Assembly: GCF_964355755.1 (NCBI RefSeq)
Contig: NC_092671.1
Location: forward strand, 34,172,304 to 34,236,303
From: Antedon mediterranea
Taxonomy: Eukaryota; Animalia; Echinodermata
Length of the DNA stretch: 64,000 nucleotides
Reading direction: 5' to 3'
Each line of letters starts with the position of its first letter. The first letter of the stretch is position 1. This document shows, in pieces, positions 49,501-64,000 of the stretch. Both the position numbers and the translations under genes were made by a program. The notes below the pieces were generated by a model, which did no database searches, was not told where the DNA came from, and saw nothing but the letters and a program-made list of their open reading frames with translations.

Positions 49501-51060
49501 TATTCTTAATAATTGTACTAAATTATTAAGAAAGAAACAGTACTGAACTGAACTGAACTGAACTTTTATTGTATCTCTTTTAAATCAGAGGCACAGTCTC
49601 AATGAGATGTGCAACAAGTTTACAGTGAAAAATAATACATACACACTTAAATATAAATACAAAACAAGAAATTAGACATAAGAACAAAATAACAAAAAAA
49701 AATTTAAGAAAACTGAGACAGATTAAATACTAAGAAAATGAATAAATTAAGTTTGAGAAGGAATTGTATTATATATATCATTTCGTGTGTTCCAAGCCAT
49801 GGTCAGAAAAATTTTACAATGTTTGTCGAAAATAATACTTGCTAATTCGTGTACATCATGAGTCAATTGATTTGGTGTAATTTTAAATTCATTATGGATT
49901 TCAAGATCATCGAAGAATAAGTGGTATTTAAGATCTAGAGAGCTAGTAGTAAGCATAACATTTCCCCACTCCTACATTAGCATGGTAGGATATTGTAATG
50001 GTCGCAGGTGGCTCAACTTTATTTATTACTGCAATGGGATGGACATGGTCCTACTACCACCTTACCATCCAATAGGATTCCAGTAAATTTCCTGTAGGGC
50101 CTACTACCATGCCAATCAGGATTCAGTAATTAAATGAATGAACCCCTTAAGTTAACAAGGAAATCAGCCTATCCGAATATACCAGTAGACTTCGTCGTAC
50201 AGTCGTACTGTGGTAATAGTTGAGAATTCTCAATAGTCAATTTGGTATATTTTATATACCTGACAGGACTGGACACAGAGTGGTTTCAGTCACGTGGTTT
50301 TAAAATACTATACTGCCCTCAACGTTTATATTTAGTTAGACTGTACGCCGATTTGTCCTTACGCCAATTGTTGTCCTTTGGGCAATTTTGTCCTTTGGGC
50401 AATTTTTGTCCTTACGCCAATTTGTGTACTTACGCCAATTTAACCATACGGCAATTTGTTCATACAGTATATGGCAATGTGTTTGTGTGTCCGTACGGCA
50501 ATATTTGTTTGTCACTCGAGGAATTATGTCTTTAACGCCATTAGTTTGCCTTACGGGAGCGGAATTGTTTGTACGGCAACGTTTGTCTATTTTGGCCCTA
50601 ATGGCCGCCCATAAATTCCCGAGTTGCCTATCTACAACTCAGGTTTTTCTCTTAAGCTGACTGAACCAGCATGCGAATTTCATATAACTTTATTAATTTG
50701 AATTTTTAAATAATTGTAAAATAAATTCAATAAATTATTATTTAATATTTTCTTTTTAAATCATAAAAAATCAAGGGTTTTTGACTAATGACACTATTGC
50801 AAAAATAATAAGAACCAATGTTAATATTTATCACAATGTATAATACATTTTAGAAATTAACAGAACATAATTCCTCTAAGAAAATAATATCAAACATTTA
50901 AATATTAAGATGATAATTTAGAGACAATGCCTAATTGTCAATAAACAAAATAGCAAGAAATAAAATAAAAAAGACTAATATCAATATAAATGTAGTGAAT
51001 TTATTTTAGTTGGTTCCGAGCTTTCTCATGCGTATACATATAACTCCACGCGACGTACAC

Positions 51061-51397
51061 TGTCACTGAATGATAACTCATACAAAAAGTATATTTAACT
51101 CAACTAGAACTGTTATTCCTTGTAACTCGTTTAATACATCTTTCTACCACTACCAGTCAAGCCTTAATATTTTCTTTATCATCTTTCCGTTTATCTACTT
51201 TGATCTTATTCTCTCTTCTCCCCCTAATATCTATTACATTCCACTTTTATACTGGACATGCAAATTTTAGGCTTCAGAGGAGGACAACATTTTCCCTCCA
51301 AAATTTATACGATTTTGATTGGCTAATAATATAAGGCGGACCTGGTCTAAAGCATCCTTATCTAATCACAGAGAATCACAACATCAATAATATGACA
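51061..51397 (-). mobile_element. Putative 3' LTR of the gypsy (Gmr1-like) retrotransposon
   Basis: Minus strand: polypurine tract AAAAAGGGGAA immediately followed by TGTCA (51397) ... TGACA (51061), ~100 bp after the pol stop. The distal boundary is inferred. Confidence 0.6.
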
Positions 51398-51498
51398 TTC
51401 CCCTTTTTGGGAAAAAGATTGTGTCAATCTTTCCAAAAATTTAACATTTAAAACCATTTTACTATAAACTATCTACAAATAACACCTCTATAATATTA

Positions 51499-51628
51499 TT
51501 ATGCACGGCTTAATCCATCTGCATTTCCATTTAATGATCCTTTCTTGTAAATAACTTTAAATTTATATCCTTGTAAAAACAGAGCCCATCTCATAAGTCT
51601 AACATTGGCACCCTTCATTGAGTCCATC
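51499..51628 (-). pseudogene. C-terminal part of gypsy RNase H, separated from the rest by the Polinton-like insertion
   Basis: (M)DSMKGANVRLMRWALFLQGYKFKVIYKKGSLNGNADGLSRA*; in frame with 63665-64000 after removing the insert and one TSD. Confidence 0.93.
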
Positions 51629-51685
51629 AGTAGAAAGAAAGGTACTTCAGACCCGACCTTGGTGTATTTCCTGATTACGTAATAT

Positions 51686-51940
51686 CCGCCAGGTGTTTCT
51701 AATGAAGGTCGTTCATTTCCTGTTATTGTATTAGTTATGTAACTTCCGCCAGGTGTTTCTAATGAAGGTCGTTCTTTTCCTGTTATTGTATTAGTTATGT
51801 AACTTCCGTCAGGTGTTTCTAATGAAGGTCGTTCTTTTCCTGGTTTCGTACTAGTTATGTAATTTCCGCCAGGTGTTTCTAATGAAGGTTATTCTTTTCC
51901 TGTTATTGTAATAGTTATGTAATTTCCGCCAGGTGTTTCT
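51686..51940. repeat. Subterminal 60-bp tandem repeat, ~4.25 copies (left)
   Basis: ccg(c/t)caggtgtttct at 51686, 51746, 51806, 51866, 51926. Confidence 0.95.
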
Positions 51941-51959
51941 TTGTCTCATATTTATTAAT

Positions 51960-51997
51960 TTTTGGCGCGAGGTTCTGGTACGTGGTGAGTGACGTCA
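51960..51997 (+). promoter_or_regulatory. Candidate promoter: E2F-like TTTGGCGCG and perfect CRE/ATF TGACGTCA upstream of the first ORF
   Basis: Motifs at 51961-51969 and 51990-51997, ~110-150 bp before ATG 52110; mirrored at ~63296-63332. Confidence 0.45.
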
Positions 51998-52109
51998 TTA
52001 CTTTATTTACGATTTAAGATGGTGTAACAAAGTGAATCGGTTATTGTTGTACTATTTTCCAGTTGTTTTGCCTATTTTTGCGTAGAGTATCTCTTTACAG
52101 TATTTCATT

Positions 52110-52664
52110 ATGTCTGGAAGTATATATTTTTCGCAAGAGAGTTGTGTAGATACTGTTATAATAATTAGCGATGATGAGGATACTGTTGTTGTTCCAGGCA
52201 GTGATATAGATGATCGTTACACGGCGGCCGAAGAGGTTATCCCCGTCGGTATAGATGAAGGAGTCAAGAGGAGTAACAGGCCTACAAGTTGTATATTTAC
52301 GTACGTGGACGAGGTGGAGAGAGAATTTTTGTTGAAAATGGAGCGTTTGGTTAAACAATTGTTTGCTGCTCAAGTGTTAGCCAAGTGTTGGGTTTTAAGT
52401 AAAGCGGCTTGTTATGGTTGTGAATTTGACAGGAGCAGTCAAAAAGATCATGATTTCTGTTGTATGAAGTCTCTAGAAGAACAGATTGACTATTTTTATC
52501 GGGAGGTTCTGGATAAGAAGTATGTTTCAGTCGATACCGTTTACAACAAACTAAATATGCACGGAGAATATTCATTGCCTCGGTATAGACATTTCGTTTA
52601 TTTTCTTGTCAATACCCTGATTAATTCAGAGACTATTTTTAAGCTGTTGTGCGAGGACATTTAA
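52110..52664 (+). CDS. 184-aa intronless protein: acidic N-terminus + CxxC-x9-H-x2-CC putative zinc-binding motif (left copy)
   Basis: Open ATG-TAA frame conserved in both arms; motif CYGCEFDRSSQKDHDFCC. Confidence 0.75.
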   Translation: MSGSIYFSQESCVDTVIIISDDEDTVVVPGSDIDDRYTAAEEVIPVGIDEGVKRSNRPTSCIFTYVDEVEREFLLKMERLVKQLFAAQVLAKCWVLSKAACYGCEFDRSSQKDHDFCCMKSLEEQIDYFYREVLDKKYVSVDTVYNKLNMHGEYSLPRYRHFVYFLVNTLINSETIFKLLCEDI

Positions 52665-52819
52665 ATTGTGTTTCGCACGTGTCACGGAAACGATTGACCG
52701 GAAATAACAATCATTATCTTTTTAATTACTGTACTGGGCTACTTCCATACTGAGCTGCATATCCTGTTTCAAGCGTAATCGTTCGTTTCACTCTCTGTAA
52801 ATCTCTACAGTCTATAAAC

Positions 52820-54638
52820 ATGAGTTTCAGCTGTTTACCTACTCCGAAATTAGCAATTGGTGAGAAACCCCGTAGGACAATGAAAAGAGTGATGGGGAGT
52901 TCTAATGGTCAAGCTGACGAGTGTAGCAGTTTAAAATTACCAACGATGGCTTCTAAATCAGCGAATATATTGGATTCTATAAAATCTTTTAACGGTCAAA
53001 CAGATGAGTGTAAAGGTTTGAGTAAAGCCTCAGGAATGAGCGCCCGAGATTTTGCCGTAATGACCGATGGTGTACCAAAGATTTCCATAACTTCAACGAA
53101 TCGGATTTTCTTGTCTGAAAAACGCCATGTAGTGGCCCAACGATGGGGTGACGATGTTTATGTTTATCTCAGAGAGTATTATCAAACGGAAGAATATGGT
53201 GTCTACAAACCTGGACCTCTAGGTATTAATTTACCCGTTCTGCTGTGGCAAAAACTTTTCAACAATATTGATTTAATTAGTCAGGCACTGGAAGACTTAC
53301 AAAGAGACATTAACATGGTGGAGGCAGTAAGAATCCCACTTTCGGACATAATTCATGTGGTAGTTAGTAACTGGAAAGAAGAACAATTTGTGTGTATTCG
53401 CCGCTATTACCAGTCTGAAGAAGGAGGCAAGTTTAAACCCGGTAAAAAAGGTGTAAACCTTCCAAAGAGTCAGTGGTTCAAGATAATTGAAAAACACGGT
53501 GAAATACAAAAGATGATTGAGGAGGTTGGTAATGATAATGCGGCTACTGTTGACAAAAACGTTAATGGAGGACGTTTATTCAATTCAGAACATCAATTGC
53601 TACCCCCTGATAAGTTATCGGTGCAAAAGATAATAGGGGAAAATTTAGACTGTGATTACCTTCAACTTCTTGATAAAGGAGCAGCCGATACATTGTTTAA
53701 AAAATGTGAGGAAGAGATTGACTATTTTACCGGAGATCTTGCAAAGGTGAAAGTGTACGGAAAGTGGTTTAATATTCCTAGAAAACAGGTTAGTTCCATT
53801 ATGTTTTTATCCATGGTTTTGTATTAATGACTTGTTAATTACTTGTATATCGTTTCCTTTGTTTTTTCCATAATTTACCGCTGTGTAGCTATAGGTGTTA
53901 TTTACTCTTTTTCTGTAAATTATTTTATTTGGGGCGTGTTCATTTACATCTCGCCAAATAATAAATGACTTTCTTTGTATGGTTTCCCCTCTGCAGGTTT
54001 CGTTCGGCGATTCAGGCTTAACTTACAAATATTCAGGCAATACAGTACCAGCTTTACCGTGGCCACCATTCCTGAAAGATCTCCGCGATCTTTTAAAATC
54101 GGTTACAGGACATTACTTCAATTTTGTTTTGGTCAACCGGTAAATATTCTTGTTTATTATTTTATTTATTTATTTTATTTATTGATTAAAAGGGTCCATC
54201 GTTTACCTCTAAAACGAATGAACACTATCAGTATTCATACTGGATGATTTCTGCAATTTGCTAGATAATAATTGGGGTTTTTTTTTTAGTCTCATCTTAA
54301 AATATTTTATTTTCTATTGTATTTTGTCGTTACTCTATAGATATGCTACTGGAAGTGATTACATTGGCGAACACAAAGATGATGAGAAAGACATGAATCA
54401 CTTTAGTCCAATCGCCTCTGTATCATTGGGGCAACCACGTATGTTTAGATTTCGACATGGTGATGCGCGAGGTAAGAGTCCCAAAAGAATCATTGAGCCA
54501 GTAACTGTTGATCTTAAACACGGTACATTATTAATGATGAATTATCCCACTAATGAGTACTGGTACCATTCACTGCCTAAAAATCAATCCATCAAGCTAC
54601 CAAGAATAAATCTCACGTTTAGAGATATTAAAAGATGA
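52820..54638 (+). CDS. PC4-PC4-ALKBH2-like fusion protein, 469 aa; exons 52820-53788, 53997-54139, 54341-54638 (intact)
   Basis: GT-AG introns of 208 and 201 bp give one open frame. Two PC4 domains (YLREYY..YKPGPLGINLP..W; CIRRYY..FKPGKKGVNLPKSQW). AlkB domain KVYGKWFNIPRKQVSFGDSGLTYKYSG...FNFVLVNRY..GSDYIGEHKDDE...WYHSLP...RINLTFR with HxD, H and R/N/R ligands. Confidence 0.92.
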
Positions 54639-56997
54639 GAGAAATGTTACGCAAACATTACAGTCTTTAATAGTGATTGCAGATCTCAAGAATATCAACT
54701 GTTCATGATCTGTTCTCATTTAGTATAGTAGTACCAGTTGAATTATTTTTGTGATGATATTCCTAAAAATGGTTGTATTATTGTATTGATGTTAATTCAC
54801 TTAGATCTAGGCCTAATTCCATTGATCGTTAATAATCATGTGATTGTTTGTCATTGTGTGGATAATGATTAACTTTACGAATAATTTCTTAAAAGTAACT
54901 TGTAATGTATTTCTAATTGTTAAATACAATTTTTTATGTTTTTAATAGGTGTGTAAGTTTTTCTTTAAAGCGTTTTAATCGTAATTTCAAGAGTAATAGG
55001 TACTTGTAACGTTTGAAACGGACTGGTAGATTAAACAAAAAAAAACCAAAAAAACAACAAAAACAAAACACGTTATAATAACACTAATAATAGCACATAT
55101 TTTCGTACATGTATCAATGATTTATCTACATAAGTGTGATTAATATTATTACAATAAAGACCATGTACATCTACGATATTTTTACTGTAAGTGGTATTGT
55201 AAATAAAAATTATGAATTCAATCGTGAGAAATGACCGATATCTGTGTATTATTTTATATTACTTTTATCATAATTGCAACAACACCAAAAAAAAAACTCA
55301 GAGAAATCATAATTATCGAATACAGAAAGACGTTTTGGTTACCAATTGTATTTCTTGACACTTAATACATTTTAACAAAAAACAAGACCTTCAACCGGAG
55401 CCAAAAATGGAAATTTGTTTACGTGCAGGTTATTGCCATTAGATATTCTTTGAACTACTCTGGTTTTTATAAATATTGTCACTTTTTTTCTACACGTTTA
55501 TCTACCGAGATTTTGTTTTCCTTTTTATGAATCTTCCGCTGTTCATGAGCATTATTAATTTTTTACAGGCCTTGTTCTTCGCTTTGCAGGCTAAATCTTA
55601 AAACGGCATAGGCCTACATTTTAACGGTTCTTTGTTACCTATAGTTCTCTGAATGTTTTAATTTACCGTAGATGATGAAAAAATCCCTTAATCTAGCACC
55701 ATTTTAAAAAAAAGGTTCCGCAGTAAATGGTTTATTTTTGGTGGTATTAATGGAATCATCGAGGCACAATATTAGGCTTAAAAACATGACGTCACTATTT
55801 TAAACGGTTTATCATACAAGAACAATTAACCAATCACAAAACTGAGCTACTGATTTGCGTAGAAGTTTCTGGAAATGACAAATTAAGGAAACACGTACAC
55901 ATTAATAAATATATATTAATTTTTATATAAATAATAGACAAAACAAAAGGAAATACACCAAACAAATCATTTTCGTTATGAATTTATAATAACTTTAAAT
56001 TTTGTCCATCACAGGAGACGCGTTTAGCGTTTTCCAATTGTAAAACAGTTTCGCATTGCGTCGCAACGCATGCACATACTGCAAGTACCGTACCGTACTG
56101 TAACAAGTGTACTGATATGTATTTTGTTGGTCACTCATCATTTTAGCCAACACATTATTTAACTCATCAGGTGTAATATCTTTTCACAAATCCTTTATAT
56201 CTTTACTTTTTCTTGACAACTCATAACAAACAAGAATAGTACTCTGAATGAGTGTGGGAGAGGTGTGTGGGAGTCCCATTCAACTAAACCTTGCCAATTT
56301 GTACTCGACCTACGATAAAACCATTTTTTAAAAGTCAACATAGCGACACGAGAAAACAATTGATAATAGGGATATAAAGTTTTTCTTGCATTGTTATACA
56401 GTAACCTATGTTTTTCGGTGTTTACACCATCTCATTGTTTATAATTACGTTTGTTAATATCGGTAGTGTTTCTCTAGCAGAGTTATATTACTTGTTTATA
56501 CTCGTATAGTTTGCAGTCCTCCATGTTGTTCGTATATTTTGTAAAAAGTGTACTTATGATTACTTTAAAAAACCAACTCATTTTATTTGCATTTTATCTA
56601 CACCTCATGGTTAAAATGTGTTGTTTTTCATAGAGTGTGATGCTGCTTAAAACGTTATACTAGTATAACCACCAAAACGGTTTATTATCTGTAGGAAATC
56701 ATCAATGGTAACATGCGGTAAACAATACAAATTAGTTTCACAAATTATTTAAAAAAATAGCACAATTGTTACAAATGAATTTAAGAAAATAAAGGTGTAC
56801 AGATTTTATTTCGAAAAATTGTAGGCCTAGACCTACAAAGATAATTTTACAGGTCATGGTTAATTGTCACAGTCTATTCGTCCTTGTATAGATGTCAAGT
56901 TCAAGTGTCAATTGACACAAGTATTTTTCCCATGTTCAGAGTTCAAGTAATTGACCTTTTAATGTTTAACCCTGGTTTGAAAATAAAATGTCCTCTT

Positions 56998-57293
56998 TTG
57001 TAGATTTGTAACCCTTATTGAGTTTGAGCACATTTGTTAAGTACCGGTACTTAATTAAGTTGGGTGGCTCATTAATTGACCTTTTAATGTTGCATGGAAC
57101 TCTCCCTGTAACCCTAATAAGTAATAAACATTTAGTGACAGTCTCTTGTAGATTTGTAACCCTTATTGAGTTTGAGCACATTTGTTAAGTACCGGTACTT
57201 AATTAAGTTGGGTGGCTCATTAATTGACCTTTTAATGCTGCATGGAACTCTCCCTGTAACCCTAATAAGTAATAAACATTTAGTTACAGTCTC
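56998..57293. repeat. 148-bp direct tandem duplication in the central spacer
   Basis: ttgtagatttgtaacccttattgag at 56998 and 57146. Confidence 0.9.
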
Positions 57294-60200
57294 TCTTTAT
57301 CTATATTTGTGAAGTCAGTATACAGAGAAATAATATATTACCTTAACCACTAAAGATATGTTATTAATGTAACAAAGTTATTTTGTGTTATTGAATACGT
57401 ATACAGGTCTAATAATAAATGAATTTTAACACAATAAATGACTATAAACTTATAAAATGGTGAAATTTAATTTTCTTCCGGTCTTGACCATTTTCCCCCG
57501 GTCTTGACCATTTTTACTCCAAGTCTTGAACAATTCCCCTTGACAATAACTACAGTTTTTAAACAACTTTTATTATTAGAAACCCCTGTTCCTAAATGGT
57601 TTCCAGTCTACTTGTATTTAAACATTGTATCAGAGAGTTGAAAAATAAGTTCCCTGAACATGTTATGCGATGTGGTCATCATAAGTGTGTAGACCGCATG
57701 GCTACCGTACATCACTAACAGGGATGTCGTCCCAAGCCGTGGAAACAGAAAAGAAGAACAGACGACCGTGTCCACTTTTCAATGTCCAGATCATTTTCGA
57801 TCGATTTTGATGTATGGAAGAGCTTATTTAGTGGGGTAGGTTCAGCTTATTTATAGGTATTGATTTTTTTTGGGAGTTAGTAGACAGTTTGTTTGTTTTG
57901 GGGTTTTTTTTTTTTTTTCATTATCGACCCGTTCTGATAACTGTAGAAACACGTCCGAAAGCACATCGTTCGAATTGTCTTTGGAGAAAGTACCATACAC
58001 TCAGCAAACAATGTCTACTTGAATGATTGTAGGAATACAGTAGACTTCAAGTTTTCAGTTAATCAGTTATTGTATTGCTATATTGGTGTATCGTACATTC
58101 GTTTCTGTATCGTTATAATATACTGTTTATTAATGAACTTTTATGTTTCGCATCCTGCAATACAGCTCTTTTAGACCGTTGACTAGTATAAGCTGCAATC
58201 ATAGGCTATAGGCCTAATCTCAGAATATTAACTTCAATTTTACGAACAGTTTGAATTACAAACGGCAAAAGGCACAATTAAAAGGGACCGTGTGTTTGCC
58301 ACAAATAGGCCCTATACTTAAAATACTAAAGTTGATATACCTGATAACCAAAGTACACTGTACACTTTTATAAGAATTAGTTTAATGTATGTGTGACCTT
58401 TTTTTTGTTAATTTATTCTGTACACTTTATGTAAAATTATCTTTGTAGGTCTAGCCCTACAATTTTTCGAAATAAAATCTGTACACCTTTATTTTCTTAA
58501 ATTCATTTGTAACAATTGTGCTATTTTTTTAAATAATTTGTGAAACTAATTTGTATTGTTTACCGCATGTTACCATTGATGATTTCCTACAGATAATAAA
58601 CCGTTTTGGTGGTTATACTAGTATAACGTTTTAAGCAGCATCACACTCTATGAAAAACAACACATTTTAACCATGAGGTGTAAATAAAATGCAAATAAAA
58701 TGAGTTGGTTTTTTAAAGTAATCATAAGTACACTTTTTACAAAATATACGAACAACATGGAGGACTGCAAGCTATACGAGTATAAACAAGTAATATAACT
58801 CTGCTAGAGAAACACTACCGATATTAACAAACGTAATTATAAACAATGAGATGGTGTAAACACCGAAAAACATAGGTTACTGTATAACAATGCAAGAAAA
58901 ACTTTATATCCCTATTATCAATTGTTTTCTCGTGTCGCTATGTTGACTTTTAAAAAATGGTTGTATCGTAGGTCGAGTACAAATTGGCAAGGTTTAGTTG
59001 AATGGGACTCCCACACACCTCTCCCACACTCATTCAGAGTACTATTCTTGTTTGTTATGAGTTGTCAAGAAAAAGTAAAGATATAAAGGATTTGTGAAAA
59101 GATATTACACCTGATGAGTTAAATAATGTGTTGGCTAAAATGATGAGTGACCAACAAAATACATATCAGTACACTTGTTACAGTACGGTACGGTACTTGC
59201 AGTATGTGCATGTGTTGCGACGCAATGCGAAACTGTTTTACAATTGGAAAACGCTAAACGCGTCTCCTGTGATGGACAAAATTTAAAGTTATTATAAATT
59301 CATAACGAAAATGATTTGTTTGGTGTATTTCCTTTTGTTTTGTCTATTATTTATATAAAAATTAATATATATTCATTAATGTGTACGTGTTTCCTTAATT
59401 TGTCATTTCCAGAAACTTCTACGCAAATCAGTAGCTCAGTTTTGTGATTGGTTAATTGTTCTTGTATGATAAACCGTTTAAAATAGTGACGTCATGTTTT
59501 TAAGCCTAATATTGTGCCTCGATGATTCCATTAATACCACCAAAAATAAACCATTTACTGCGGAACCTTTTTTTTTAAAATGGTGCTAGATTAAGGGATT
59601 TTTTCATCATCTACGGTAAATTAAAACATTCAGAGAACTATAGGTAACAAAGAACCGTTAAAATGTAGGCCTATGCCGTTATAAGATTTAGCCTGCAAAG
59701 CGAAGAACAAGGCCTGTAAAAAATTAATAATGCTCATGATCAGCGGAAGATTCATAAAAAGGAAAACAAAATCTCGGTAGATAAACGTGTAGAAAAAAAG
59801 TGACAATATTTATAAAAACCAGAGTAGTTCAAAGAATATCTAATGGCAATAACCTGCACGTAAACAAATTTCCATTTTTGGCTCCGGTTGAAGGTCTTGT
59901 TTTCTGTTAAAAAGTATTAAGTGTCAAGAAATACAATTGGTAACCAAAACGTCTTTCTGTATTCGATAATTATGATTTCTCTGAGTTTTTTTTTGGTGTT
60001 GTTGCAATTATGATAAAAGTAATATAAAATAATACACAGATATCGGTCATTTCTCACGATTGAATTCATAATTTTTATTTACAATACCACTTACAGTAAA
60101 AATATCGTAGATGTACATGGTCTTTATTGTAATAATATTAATCACACTTATGTAGATAAATCATTGATACACGTACGAAAATATGTGCTATTATTAGTGT

Positions 60201-60641
60201 TATTATAACGTGTTTTGTTTTTGTTGTTTTTTTTGTTTTTTTTGTTTAATCTACCAGTCCGTTTCAAACGTTACAAGTACCTATTACTCTTGAAATTACG
60301 ATTAAAACGCTTTAAAGAAAAACTTACACACCTATTAAAAACATAAAAAATTGTATTTAACAATTAGAAATACATTACAAGTTACTTTTAAGAAATTATT
60401 CGTAAAGTTAATCATTATCCACACAATGACAAACAATCACATGATTATTAACGATCAATGGAATTAGGCCTAGATCTAAGTGAATTAACATCAATACAAT
60501 AATACAACCATTTTTAGGAATATCATCACAAAAATAATTCAACTTGTACTACTATACTAAATGAGAACAGATCATGAACAGTTGATATTCTTGAGATCTG
60601 CAATCACTATTAAAGACTGTAATGTTTGCGTAACATTTCTC

Positions 60642-62473
60642 TCATCTTTTAATATCTCTAAACGTGAGATTTATTCTTGGTAGCTTGATGGATTGATTTT
60701 TAGGCAGTGAATGGTACCAGTACTCATTAGTGGGATAATTCATCATTAATAATGTACCGTGTTTAAGATCAACAGTTACTGGCTCAATGATTCTTTTGGG
60801 ACTCTTACCTCGCGCATCACCATGTCGAAATCTAAACATACGTGTCTGCCCCAATGATACAGAGGCGATTGGACTAAAGTGATTCATGTCTTTCTCATCA
60901 TCTTTGTGTTCGCCAATGTAATCACTTCCAGTAGCATATCTATAGAGTAACGACAAAATACAATAGAAAATAAAATATTTTAAGATGAGACTAAAAAAAA
61001 CCCCAATTATCCATTAAAACAAACTTATCTAGCAAATTGCAGAAATCATCCAGTATGAATACTGATAGTGTTCATTCGTTTTAGAGGTAAACGATGGACC
61101 CGTTTAATCAATAAATAAAATAAATAAATAAAATAATAAACAAGAATATTTACCGGTTGACCAAAACAAAATTGAAGTAATGTCCTGTAACCGATTTTAA
61201 AAGATCGCGGAGATCTTTCAGGAATGGTGGCCACGGTAAAGCTGGTACTGTATTGCCTGAATATTTGTAAGTTAAGCCTGAATCGCCGAACGAAACCTGC
61301 AGAGGGGAAACCATACAAAGAAAGTCATTTATTATTTGGCGAGATGTAAATGAACACGCCCCAAATAAAATAATTTACAGAAAAAGAGTAAATAACACCT
61401 ATAGCTACACAGCGGTAAATTATGGAAAAAACAAAGGAAACGATGTACAAGTAATTAACAAGTCATTAATACAAAACCACGGATAAAAACATAATGGAAC
61501 TAACCTGTTTTCTAGGAATATTAAACCACTTTCCGTACACTTTCACCTTTGCAAGATCTCCGGTAAAATAGTCAATCTCTTCCTCACATTTTTTAAACAA
61601 TGTATCGGCTGCTCCTTTATCAAGAAGTTGAAGGTAATCACAGTCTAAATTTTCCCCTATTATCTTTTGCACCGATAACTTATCAGGGGGTAGCAATTGA
61701 TGTTCTGAATTGAATAAACGTCCTCCATTAACGTTTTTGTCAACAGTAGCCGCATTATCATTACCAACCTCCTCAATCATCTTTTGTATTTCACCGTGTT
61801 TTTCAATTATCTTGAACCACTGACTCTTTGGAAGGTTTACACCTTTTTTACCGGGTTTAAACTTGCCTCCTTCTTCAGACTGGTAATAGCGGCGAATACA
61901 CACAAATTGTTCTTCTTTTTAGTTACTAACTACCACATGAATTATGTCCGAAAGTGGGATTCTTACTGCCTCCACCATGTTAATGTCTCTTTGTAAGTCT
62001 TCCAGTGCCTGAATAATTAAATCAATATTGTTGAAAAGTTTTTGCCACAGCAGAACGGGTAAATTAATACCTAGATGTCCAGGTTTGTAGACACCATATT
62101 CTTCCGTTTGATAATAATCTCTGAGATAAACATAAACATCGTCACCCCATCGTTGGGCCACTACATGGCGTTTTTCAGACAAGAAAATCCGATTCGTTGA
62201 AGTTATGGAAATCTTTGGTACACCATCATTCATTACGGCAAAATCTCGGGCGCTCATTCCTGAGGCTTTACTCAAACCTTTACACTCATCTGTTTGACCG
62301 TTAAAAGATTTTATAGAATCCAATATATTCGCTGATGTAGAAGCCATCGTTGGTAATTTTAAACTGCTACACTCGTCAGCTTGACCATTAGAACTCCACA
62401 TCACTCTTTTCATTGTCCTACGGGGTTTCTCACCAATTGCTAATTTCGGAGTAGGTAAACAGCTGAAACTCAT
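60642..62473 (-). pseudogene. PC4-PC4-ALKBH2-like fusion, right copy; exons 62473-61505, 61296-61154, 60939-60642; nonsense W185*
   Basis: TGG changed to TAA at 61919-61921, in frame, inside the second PC4 domain; splice sites intact. Confidence 0.9.
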
Positions 62474-62628
62474 GTTTATAGACTGTAGAGATTTACAGAG
62501 AGTGAAACGAACGATTACGCTTGAAACAGGATATGCAGCTCAGTAGGGAAGTAGCCCAGTACAGTAATTAAAAAGATAATGATTGTTATTTCCGGTCAAT
62601 CGTTTCCGTGACACGTGCGAAACACAAT

Positions 62629-63183
62629 TTAAATGTCCTCGCACAACAGCTTAAAAATAGTCTCTGAATTAATCAGGGTATTGACAAGAAAATAAACGAA
62701 ATGTCTATACCGAGGCAATGAATATTCTCCGTGCATATTTAGTTTGTTGTAAACGGTATCGACTGAAACATACTTCTTATCCAGAACCTCCCGATAAAAA
62801 TAGTCAATCTGTTCTTCTAGAGACTTCATACAACAGAAATCATGATCTTTTTGACTGCTCCTGTCAAATTCACAACCATAACAAGCCACTTTACTTAAAA
62901 CCCAACACTTGGCTAACACTTGAGCAGCAAACAATTGTTTAACCAAACGCTCCATTTTCAACAAAAATTCTCTCTCCACCTCGTCCACGTACGTAAATAT
63001 ACAACTTGTAGGCCTGTTACTCCTCTCGACTCCTTCATCTATACCGACGGGGATAACCTCTTCGGCCGCCGTGTTACGATCATCTATATCACTGCCAAGA
63101 ACAACAACAGTATCCTCATCATCGCTAATTATTATAACAGTATCTACACAACTCCCTTGCGAAAAATATATACTTCCAGACAT
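62629..63183 (-). CDS. 184-aa Cys/His-motif protein (right copy)
   Basis: Differs from 52110-52664 at 5 residues; frame open. Confidence 0.72.
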   Translation of the reverse strand: MSGSIYFSQGSCVDTVIIISDDEDTVVVLGSDIDDRNTAAEEVIPVGIDEGVERSNRPTSCIFTYVDEVEREFLLKMERLVKQLFAAQVLAKCWVLSKVACYGCEFDRSSQKDHDFCCMKSLEEQIDYFYREVLDKKYVSVDTVYNKLNMHGEYSLPRYRHFVYFLVNTLINSETIFKLLCEDI

Positions 63184-63352
63184 AATGAAATACTGTAAAG
63201 AGATACTCTACGCAAAAATAGGCAAAACAACTGGAAAATAGTACAACAATAACCGATTCACTTTCTTACACCATCTTAAATCGTAAATAAAGTAATGACG
63301 TCACTCACCACGTACCAGAACCTCGCGCCAAAAATTAATAAATATGAGACAA

Positions 63353-63607
63353 AGAAACACCTGGCGGAAATTACATAACTATTACAATAACAGGAAAAGA
63401 ATAACCTTCATTAGAAACACCTGGCGGAAATTACATAACTAGTACGAAACCAGGAAAAGAACGACCTTCATTAGAAACACCTGGCGGAAGTTACATAACT
63501 AATACAATAACAGGAAAAGAACGACCTTCATTAGAAACACCTGGCGGAAGTTACATAACTAATACAATAACAGGAAATGAACGACCTTCATTAGAAACAC
63601 CTGGCGG
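63353..63607. repeat. Subterminal 60-bp tandem repeat (right)
   Basis: agaaacacctggcgg every 60 bp. Confidence 0.95.
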
Positions 63608-63664
63608 ATATTACGTAATCAGGAAATACACCAAGGTCGGGTCTGAAGTACCTTTCTTTCTACT

Positions 63665-64000
63665 TCCATCCATCTCAATGCCTGGTGGTCAGTATGAACT
63701 TGAAATTCACAACCATACAGATAATACTTAAGTTTATTGATAGCCCAAACAATAGAGAGGCACTCTTTTTCTGGCACAGAATATCTCTGCTCATGTAGAG
63801 ATAACTTTCTACTTATGTACACAATTGGATAATCATTACCCTCACGATCTATTTGGCTCAGCACTGCACCTATGCCATAATTTGAGGCATCGGTTTGCAA
63901 TATAAACATCTTAACAAAATTTGGGGCTTTTAATACATTATCATCAGTAAGTCGTTTCTTTAAAGTTACAAAGGCATTTTCACATTGTTCATTCCACTTA
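63665..64000 (-). mobile_element. Ty3/gypsy pol: RT connection and RNase H N-terminal part, continuing beyond the window
   Basis: KWNEQCENAFVTLKKRL...FILQTDASNYGIGAVLSQ...RYSVPEKECLSIVWAI...FQVHTDHQALRWM; open to the window edge. Confidence 0.93.

What the first reader, a model, noticed from the sequence alone, without database searches (positions are those of the whole stretch)
52820..54638. Tandem PC4-PC4-ALKBH2 fusion: a candidate ssDNA-targeted dealkylase encoded by a mobile element
Seen: a 469-aa spliced frame with two PC4/Sub1 domains (~53099-53305, ~53327-53527) joined to a full ALKBH2-type Fe(II)/2OG dioxygenase with intact HKD...H and RINLTFR. Established: PC4 binds ssDNA and bubbles as a dimer; ALKBH2 removes 1-methyladenine and 3-methylcytosine, lesions formed mainly in single-stranded nucleic acid; AlkB domains are known in some plant RNA viruses; 3mC is also an off-target product of DNA methyltransferases. 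Inference: the two PC4 units form a single-chain dimer that delivers the enzyme to displaced ssDNA replication intermediates, protecting the element from alkylation or methyltransferase-derived damage. I know of no described cellular protein with this architecture.
Basis: partly seen in the sequence, partly recalled or inferred. Interest (0 to 1): 0.9.

Follow-up and report, generated by a model that had tools for sequence, protein, structure and literature searches.

The report
Polinton DNA-binder fused to captured demethylase
A virus-like jumping element in a feather star carries its own predicted single-stranded-DNA-binding protein joined to a DNA-repair enzyme likely taken from the host with its introns; the enzyme half is unusually conserved between element subfamilies, so it likely works for the element, but expression and activity are untested.

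Summary
Exons 52820-53788, 53997-54139 and 54341-54638 (GT..AG) give a 469-aa frame with two PC4 repeats and a complete ALKBH2 with intact metal ligands. A RefSeq model of the crinoid Antedon mediterranea matches it at 100%.

The gene lies in one 5.2-kb arm of a 12,036-bp hairpin-shaped element (51629-63664). The element has AGTAGA..TCTACT ends and a 6-bp target duplication, and it interrupts an LTR retroelement. These are Polinton/Maverick ends, but no core genes are present.

The tandem PC4 is predicted to fold as one pseudo-dimer, and its best viral match is the adintovirus protein MOSUB. Its closest relatives, in another crinoid, lack AlkB. Seventeen family models lie on 7 large contigs. 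Between two subfamilies AlkB is 199/203 identical against 121/143 for PC4.

Not shown: splicing, expression, activity and ssDNA preference. Human ALKBH2 prefers duplex DNA. Tandem PC4, viral AlkB and intron-bearing Maverick cargo are each known; I did not find the fusion in print. Verdict: new variant of a known kind, interest 0.6.

The parts
51629..63664 (.). Whole element, 12,036 bp: non-autonomous hairpin-shaped Polinton/Maverick-type insertion with AGTAGA..TCTACT ends
   Evidence: Self-BLAST 51629-56851 vs 63664-58430, 98.9%; ends and flanks; terminal 26-mer found only at these two places in the window
51623..51628 (+). Left copy of the 6-bp target-site duplication (TCCATC)
63665..63670 (+). 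Right copy of the 6-bp target-site duplication (TCCATC)
51629..56851 (+). Left arm, 5,223 bp
   Evidence: 36 substitutions and 20 gap columns against the right arm
58430..63664 (-). Right arm, 5,235 bp, inverted copy
56852..58429 (.). Central spacer, 1,578 bp, with a 148-bp unit twice (56994-57294); no stop-free frame longer than 78 codons here or in the arm downstream of the gene
51685..51940 (+). Subterminal 60-bp tandem array, 4.3 copies (mirror copy 63353-63618)
52110..52664 (+). Intronless 184-aa ORF with acidic N-terminus and a Cys/His cluster; no family found; mirror copy 62629-63183 is also open
   Evidence: no hit in Pfam, PHROGs, homologue search, viral contigs or Atlas; weak pairwise match to a sea-cucumber PC4 protein (E 0.003)
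52820..53788 (+). Exon 1 of the fusion: N-terminal tail, PC4 repeat 1 (from about 53099), PC4 repeat 2 (about 53327-53530), linker, start of ALKBH2; inferred element/host junction near 53570
53789..53996 (+). Intron 1 (208 bp, GT..AG, phase 0); contains the stop of the unspliced frame at 53825-53827
   Evidence: host isoforms P0010/P0028 imply an acceptor at the same residue
53997..54139 (+). Exon 2 (ALKBH2)
54140..54340 (+). Intron 2 (201 bp, GT..AG, phase 2)
54341..54638 (+). Exon 3 (ALKBH2 catalytic core: H382, D384, H447, R459, R465; stop 54636-54638)
60642..62473 (-). Mirror copy of the fusion gene, broken by a premature stop in PC4 repeat 2 at 61919-61921
   Evidence: RefSeq model P0011 (XP_071941532, 238 aa) fits its downstream part (inferred)

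Best explanation
This is a Polinton/Maverick accessory gene for a tandem PC4 protein, predicted to fold as a single-chain DNA-binding pseudo-dimer, fused in frame to an ALKBH2 likely captured from crinoid genomic DNA with its introns, and the fusion likely repairs methyl damage on the element's own replicating DNA. Shown: the frame, the domains, the element's ends and target duplication, the multi-locus family, and the conservation contrast. Inferred: capture by DNA-level recombination just after the PC4 family's NxNG tail; mobilisation by a helper Polinton supplying polymerase and integrase; PC4 holding the enzyme at displaced strands, bubbles or fold-back junctions during strand-displacement synthesis; removal of 1-methyladenine and 3-methylcytosine, which would otherwise stall the polymerase. 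Because ALKBH2 favours duplex DNA and the arms would snap back into a 5-kb stem, the substrate may be re-annealed or junction DNA as much as free single strands.
For: Element ends, 6-bp duplication and interrupted retroelement frame match published Maverick ends (PMC8097293, passages). The tandem PC4 model's best viral match is adintovirus MOSUB (E 1.5e-7, TM 0.78), which is drawn next to the terminal repeat in that virus's map (PMC8502044 supplement). Closest PC4 relatives are Anneissia japonica proteins that share the N-terminal and NxNG motifs but have no AlkB; 0 of 148 relatives scanned carry PF13532. The AlkB is 81-83% identical to Antedon's PC4-less ALKBH2s for the intact copies, 73-74% to Anneissia and 63% to sea urchin. 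Subfamily A vs B: N-terminus 26/50, PC4 57/67 and 64/76, linker 23/30, AlkB 199/203 (Fisher p 4e-6 for AlkB vs PC4). B copies share three private AlkB residues and differ in the host-derived stretch just after the junction, so conservation begins at the fold's edge. 13 of 14 AlkB-containing models keep all three catalytic motifs. Intron-bearing cargo next to a Maverick terminal repeat has precedent (bioRxiv 2022.07.12.499685, passages).
Against: No enzyme or binding data. The conservation contrast rests on predicted proteins, not on dN/dS; recombination between subfamilies could give the same pattern. The only DNA support is 4 of 4 listed AlkB variants synonymous against 4 of 19 elsewhere, from the 40 best-supported of 350 rows. 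One RefSeq model (P0020) ends at the unspliced stop and only 7 of 17 models have the full architecture. No helper element or core gene is in the window's element, and the genome was not available. PC4 repeat 1 lacks the basic pair. The RKK loop is replaced by NQS, but it is also absent from the crinoid host ALKBH2s, so it is not an element adaptation. The tree does not resolve the donor among crinoid genes.
Confidence: 0.55

Rival explanations
1. Passenger cargo. The ALKBH2 exons were picked up by chance and ride along. The working product, if any, is the PC4-PC4 protein ending at the unspliced stop, and AlkB looks conserved only because one version recently replaced the others by recombination between elements.
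For: The unspliced frame is open to 53827 and one RefSeq model uses it (P0020). Inserted copies decay: 9 of 11 coding differences between the two arms change the protein when scored singly, including a stop. 10 of 17 models lack the full architecture.
Against: The junction is in frame and shared by both subfamilies. Splice sites are canonical in both arms. B copies have their own AlkB residues, and conservation starts at the domain boundary, not at the junction. Listed AlkB variants are synonymous (4 of 4).
Confidence: 0.2
2. Host-serving amplification. The element is only a vehicle, and the crinoid keeps extra PC4-tethered ALKBH2 copies for genome-wide alkylation repair.
For: ALKB2 co-evolves with DNMTs and repairs their 3mC by-product (PMC9246332, passages). 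The species also has at least two PC4-less ALKBH2 types, so dosage may matter. Several copies are intact.
Against: Copies are dispersed over 7 contigs and nearly identical within a subfamily. This copy is a young insertion in a retroelement whose two arms diverge without visible constraint. That pattern fits selection during element propagation better than selection on fixed loci.
Confidence: 0.12
3. Counter-defence. The fusion erases a methyl mark that the host puts on element DNA (or RNA) on purpose, so it is an anti-restriction factor and not a housekeeping repair enzyme.
For: DNMTs make 3mC, which stalls forks (PMC9246332). AlkB occurs in giant viruses and plant RNA viruses (PMC10598087, passages). 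A host ALKBH2 already exists, so a private tethered copy suggests unusual local demand (inference).
Against: No CpG depletion in the arm (observed/expected 0.82-1.09; window 0.92), so no trace of long-term methylation. The active site is an unmodified ALKBH2. No data on methylation of Polinton DNA in crinoids were found.
Confidence: 0.13

Closest known systems
Polintons/Mavericks (adintoviruses); vertebrate set in PMC8097293 and nematode set in bioRxiv 2023.08.22.554363 (passages)
   Same: 6-bp target duplication; terminal inverted repeats; end motif one base from (AGT)2//(ACT)2; accessory genes near the end.
   Different: No polymerase, integrase, ATPase, protease or capsid genes. Arms are 5.2 kb against 46-1,447 bp in intact vertebrate Mavericks, so 87% of the element is inverted repeat.
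MOSUB of Branchiostoma lancelet adintovirus (UniProt A0A5H3CIS2)
   Same: Tandem PC4/Sub1 fold (TM 0.78, rmsd 3.2 over 167 columns); position next to the terminal repeat.
   Different: 203 aa, 22% identity, too short to hold an AlkB domain.
Human ALKBH2/ABH2 (PDB 3rzg and others; PMC12295762 passages)
   Same: His-Asp-His triad, hairpin aromatic (Tyr for Phe102), and the Arg198/Gly204/Lys205 loop are kept.
   Different: RKK loop replaced by NQS (also lost in crinoid host genes); N-terminal tail replaced by two PC4 repeats; carried by a mobile element.
Maverick cargo genes of nematodes (wasp proteases, krma kinases; bioRxiv 2022.07.12.499685, passages)
   Same: Intron-containing, host-derived genes between the terminal repeat and the element's interior.
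   Different: Those passages describe stand-alone cargo of proteases and kinases. Here a DNA-repair enzyme is fused in frame to an element-type gene.
Virus-encoded AlkB domains (giant viruses, plant +ssRNA viruses; PMC10598087 passages; Atlas cluster 76% viral)
   Same: A selfish replicon carries a PF13532 demethylase.
   Different: No PC4 fusion was seen among the proteins examined. This one is a close, intron-retaining copy of an animal ALKBH2.
Pur-alpha repeats I-II (PDB 3k44)
   Same: Two PC4-like repeats in one chain form one domain (Z 11.2, rmsd 3.6, 129 aligned). That 3k44 holds repeats I-II as an intramolecular unit is recalled.
   Different: 7% identity; structural analogy only.

Membership tests
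Polinton/Maverick | 6-bp target-site duplication | tested here: met
   TCCATC on both sides; criterion from PMC8097293 and PMC3014272 passages
Polinton/Maverick | Terminal inverted repeats with AG..CT end motif such as (AGT)2//(ACT)2 | tested here: met
   AGTAGA..TCTACT, 5 of 6 bases match; repeats far longer than usual
Autonomous Polinton/adintovirus | Protein-primed PolB, retroviral-type integrase, ATPase, protease, capsid genes | tested here: not met
   The ORF lists for the element show no frame long enough for them. It is filed as a non-autonomous derivative, not as an autonomous member.
Non-autonomous Polinton | An autonomous helper with the same termini in the genome | not testable with these tools
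   No genome held for this window
Mobile, multi-copy family | Dispersed near-identical copies | tested here: met
   17 distinct RefSeq protein models on contigs of 7 different lengths, 22-41 Mb. Whether each sits in an element with termini was not tested.
PC4/Sub1 (PF02229) | Profile match above the curated cut-off and PC4 fold | tested here: met
   82.6 bits vs cut-off 25, two stretches; model aligns to human PC4 at rmsd 1.1 over 66 residues, Z 6.7
PC4/Sub1 (PF02229) | ssDNA-binding aromatic and basic residues | tested here: inconclusive
   Both repeats keep aromatics at the hairpin and the REYY/RRYY position; repeat 2 keeps KPGKKG, repeat 1 has KPGPLG. Residue roles partly recalled; binding not measured.
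ALKBH2 | Closer to ALKBH2 than to ALKBH3 or AlkB; His-Asp-His triad | tested here: met
   E 1e-71 vs 4e-22 vs 1e-4; H382, D384, H447 align to human H171, D173, H236
ALKBH2 | RKK loop that grips the complementary strand | tested here: not met
   NQS in 13 of 13 element models that reach it; also absent in Antedon and Anneissia host genes, present in sea urchin. It lowers the claim of human-like duplex preference, not the orthology.
ALKBH2 | Fe(II)/2OG-dependent demethylation of 1mA and 3mC | not testable with these tools
   Needs an enzyme assay

The most novel reading that the evidence does not exclude
A Polinton lineage has built a dedicated anti-methylation device, a single-chain PC4 clamp that carries a stolen ALKBH2 to its replicating DNA, because the animal host restricts these elements with fork-blocking methyl lesions such as DNMT-made 3-methylcytosine. 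It would be the first demethylase counter-defence in an animal Polinton, and helper-dependent hairpin elements would be supplying it in two copies.
Probability: 0.15. Interest if true: 0.85.

Novelty: new variant of a known kind. Interest (0 to 1): 0.6.

Why it matters
Polinton accessory genes are mostly of unknown function and Polinton replication has little experimental support. A captured enzyme with known chemistry, fused to an element-type DNA-binding protein and apparently conserved, points to methyl damage as a real cost of Polinton replication and gives a simple assay: purify the protein and test single-stranded, duplex and forked substrates with and without the PC4 part. It is also a clear case of a DNA element making a new domain architecture from a host gene with its introns. 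The limits are that it was found in one species only and that nothing functional is shown.

Tried and rejected
Expression: no RNA holder listed. Three runs were laid. The one guessed to be RNA also covers both introns, and no joint matching either intron was listed; contigs show presence only, so this says nothing either way. Summed contig depth was not used as a copy number.

A DNA-level count of synonymous and amino-acid-changing differences over exon 3 was not obtained; a contig with 23 differences over 54442-54640 could be subfamily B or a host paralogue and was not used.

Folding the full-length protein without an alignment failed (pLDDT 32.5), so domain contacts are unknown. No complex prediction was run.

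Donor and timing: 23-row tree, element clade 83/98, crinoid genes unresolved. In a 13-row tree neither 'element + Antedon hosts' (p-AU 0.36) nor 'element + Anneissia' (0.19) was rejected, and the best tree put the element outside the crinoid host genes at 50/96. Only sea urchin served as outgroup.

The 184-aa ORF: nothing in Pfam, PHROGs, the homologue search, viral contigs or the Atlas.

Context for related PC4 genes: viral scans gave one trivial 15-residue match or none; the metagenome scan gave two short partial matches that I did not read. No longer fused form (822-2,345 aa) was found, which is weak evidence.

Rejected: ordinary host gene (separate PC4-less ALKBH2s exist; element ends are clear). 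Assembly artefact for the palindrome (arms differ at 36 sites plus indels, and the target duplication is clean). Retrocopy capture (introns are kept). Helitron or cut-and-paste element (ends and 6-bp duplication fit Polintons, and the PC4 matches an adintovirus protein).

Literature: PC4/AlkB/Polinton, at least 2 of 3 terms, 28 papers, 25 listed, none on this by title or abstract start; adintovirus + PC4, 0; Maverick + Polinton + AlkB, 1 unrelated paper, listing only; ALKBH2/transposon/captured/Maverick, 128 papers, 15 listed, none of the 15 mentions ALKBH2. PMC11131425 and PMC11071296 contain neither PC4 nor AlkB in the main text. PMC6431247 gave general background only. The PMC8502044 supplement was cut when stored, and bioRxiv supplements were closed, so gene tables there could hold an AlkB I did not see. 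Subscription journals and Repbase were not searched.

Full report
Observation. The sequence at 52820-54638 holds three exons (52820-53788, 53997-54139, 54341-54638) with GT donors and AG acceptors. Joined, they give 469 aa and a stop. Pfam finds PC4 twice in exon 1 and the 2OG-Fe(II) oxygenase family in exons 2 and 3. Against solved structures the enzyme part is ALKBH2 (E 1e-71), not ALKBH3 (4e-22) or bacterial AlkB (1e-4). H382, D384 and H447 align to the human metal ligands H171, D173 and H236. Unspliced, the frame ends at 53827. A RefSeq model from the feather star Antedon mediterranea, P0001, is 100% identical and spliced the same way, which names the likely host. A gene model is not evidence of expression.

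The element. The gene is in the left arm of a large inverted repeat: 51629-56851 matches 63664-58430 at 98.9%, with 36 substitutions and 20 gap columns. The unit starts AGTAGA and ends TCTACT, and TCCATC stands on both sides. The flanks are two parts of one reverse transcriptase/RNase H frame of an LTR retroelement, so the 12,036-bp unit is a clean insertion. Vertebrate Mavericks have 6-bp duplications and (AGT)2//(ACT)2 ends, with repeats of 46-1,447 bp (PMC8097293, passages). So the ends are Polinton-type, but the arms make up 87% of the element and no core gene is present. I read it as a helper-dependent fold-back derivative of one end of a Polinton; the helper could not be sought because no genome is held. 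Each arm also has a 60-bp subterminal array and a 184-aa Cys/His ORF with no recognised family. The right-arm copy of the fusion is broken by a stop in PC4 repeat 2 at 61919-61921.

The family. Seventeen distinct RefSeq protein models of A. mediterranea belong to it, on contigs of 7 different lengths from 22 to 41 Mb. Seven of the 17 have both PC4 repeats and a whole AlkB; 13 of the 14 with an AlkB domain keep all three catalytic motifs. One, P0020, ends at the unspliced stop. The same species has PC4-less ALKBH2 genes (P0006/P0023, P0010/P0028), so the fusion is not the ordinary host gene.

Where the halves come from. A search of 1.84 billion representatives with the PC4 pair gave 222 hits, of which 150 were listed. 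I scanned 148 of these, leaving out two family members: 135 have 2-4 PC4 repeats and none has a 2OG-Fe(II) domain. Tandem PC4 is therefore common and the fusion is not. The closest relatives are Anneissia japonica proteins with one or two PC4 repeats. They share the N-terminal M[KQ]RVM motif and the NxNG tail, then stop without AlkB. In the fusion, sequence resembling host ALKBH2 begins right after that tail, near 53570. The AlkB domain of intact copies is 81-83% identical to the Antedon host genes, 73-74% to Anneissia and 63% to sea urchin. Trees do not resolve the donor or the date among crinoid genes. Host isoforms P0010 and P0028 differ by 12 residues that end where intron 1 ends, implying the same acceptor in the host. 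An intron at the intron 2 position in human ALKBH2 is recalled, not tested. Capture from genomic DNA is the simplest reading. Nematode Mavericks carry intron-bearing cargo next to the terminal repeat (bioRxiv 2022.07.12.499685, passages).

The PC4 pair. With a 59-sequence alignment the 155-residue pair folds as one unit, pLDDT 93.8 and pTM 0.88. The whole model aligns to Drosophila Pur-alpha (Z 11.2, rmsd 3.6, 129 residues) and one repeat to human PC4 (Z 6.7, rmsd 1.1, 66 residues). Its best match among viral models is MOSUB of Branchiostoma adintovirus (E 1.5e-7, TM 0.78; next best 2.7e-4, TM 0.40). The text of the published map lists MOSUB just before the right terminal repeat (PMC8502044 supplement). 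That links the gene to Polintons independently of the element's ends. Repeat 1 has KPGPLG where repeat 2 and solved PC4s have a basic pair, so one binding surface may be weaker.

Is the enzyme selected? Between subfamilies A and B (P0001 vs P0022) identity is 26/50 in the N-terminal tail, 57/67 and 64/76 in the PC4 repeats, 23/30 in the linker and 199/203 in AlkB (Fisher p 4e-6). A recent swap of the 3' part could mimic this. Against that, B copies share three AlkB residues of their own, and the host-derived stretch between the junction and the fold has diverged, so conservation starts at the domain edge. Among the variant sites listed from sequencing contigs, 4 of 4 in AlkB are synonymous against 4 of 19 in the other coding parts (p 0.008), but these come from the 40 best-supported of 350 rows. 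The two arms of this insertion show no such constraint: 9 of 11 coding differences change the protein. That fits selection while the element lineage propagates and decay after insertion. A proper dN/dS was not obtained.

Mechanism. Polintons encode a protein-primed polymerase; that it works by strand displacement is established knowledge of that family, recalled. Displaced strands are exposed at adenine N1 and cytosine N3, and 3mC stalls forks (PMC9246332, passages). A PC4 clamp would hold ALKBH2 at such DNA. The fusion keeps the last, has Tyr for Phe102 and has NQS for RKK. The crinoid host genes lack RKK too, so the loss is not element-specific. Junction or re-annealed DNA is as plausible a substrate as free single strands. 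The host-methyltransferase version finds no support in composition: CpG observed/expected is 0.82-1.09 in the arm against 0.92 for the window.

Comparison and novelty. Tandem PC4 in an adintovirus, intron-bearing Maverick cargo and viral AlkB (PMC10598087, passages) are each known. Four paper searches and the protein searches found no PC4-AlkB fusion outside this species and no AlkB in a Polinton, within the limits listed under Tried and rejected. Earlier notes of this scan describe hairpin-shaped, gene-less Polintons with other cargo in other genomes; these are unchecked leads that suggest the hairpin form recurs.

Verdict. Real, element-borne and probably functional; a new variant of a known kind. 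Confidence in the tethered-repair reading is 0.55, against passenger cargo 0.2, counter-defence 0.13 and host benefit 0.12.

Noticed in passing
window 50991-51628 and 63665-64000, minus strand: The interrupted retroelement has an LTR at 50991-51397 with a polypurine tract beside it. Its RT/RNase H frame stops at 51499, about 100 bp before the tract, leaving no room for an integrase after RNase H. This suggests a Gmr1-like gene order (recalled) or a deletion.
   Followed up: partly
window 865-48584: A large older inverted duplication (pieces about 90-99% identical) with YWTD/LDL-receptor class B exons in both arms, broken up by LINE remnants and minisatellites.
   Followed up: no
window 52110-52664: The 184-aa ORF's Cys/His cluster weakly matches the C-terminal part of a sea-cucumber protein that also has two PC4 repeats (P0120, E 0.003 pairwise). 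The two domain types may travel together in echinoderm elements.
   Followed up: partly
window 56851-57388: One contig of run X1 joins 56851 to 57388 on opposite strands, hinting at another copy with a differently arranged centre.
   Followed up: no
RefSeq models P0012/P0018, P0013/P0016, P0014/P0019, P0017: Pairs of identical or near-identical models on contigs of the same length suggest that other copies are also two-armed hairpins.
   Followed up: no
proteins P0006, P0028, P0007, P0008: Crinoid ALKBH2s lack the RKK loop that sea urchin and human keep, and Antedon has at least two PC4-less ALKBH2 types.
   Followed up: partly
proteins P0031, P0093, P0136 and others: Multi-PC4 proteins with DEK_C, Z-alpha or a viral Rep domain are common among the relatives; the named four-repeat examples are from green algae.
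   Followed up: no
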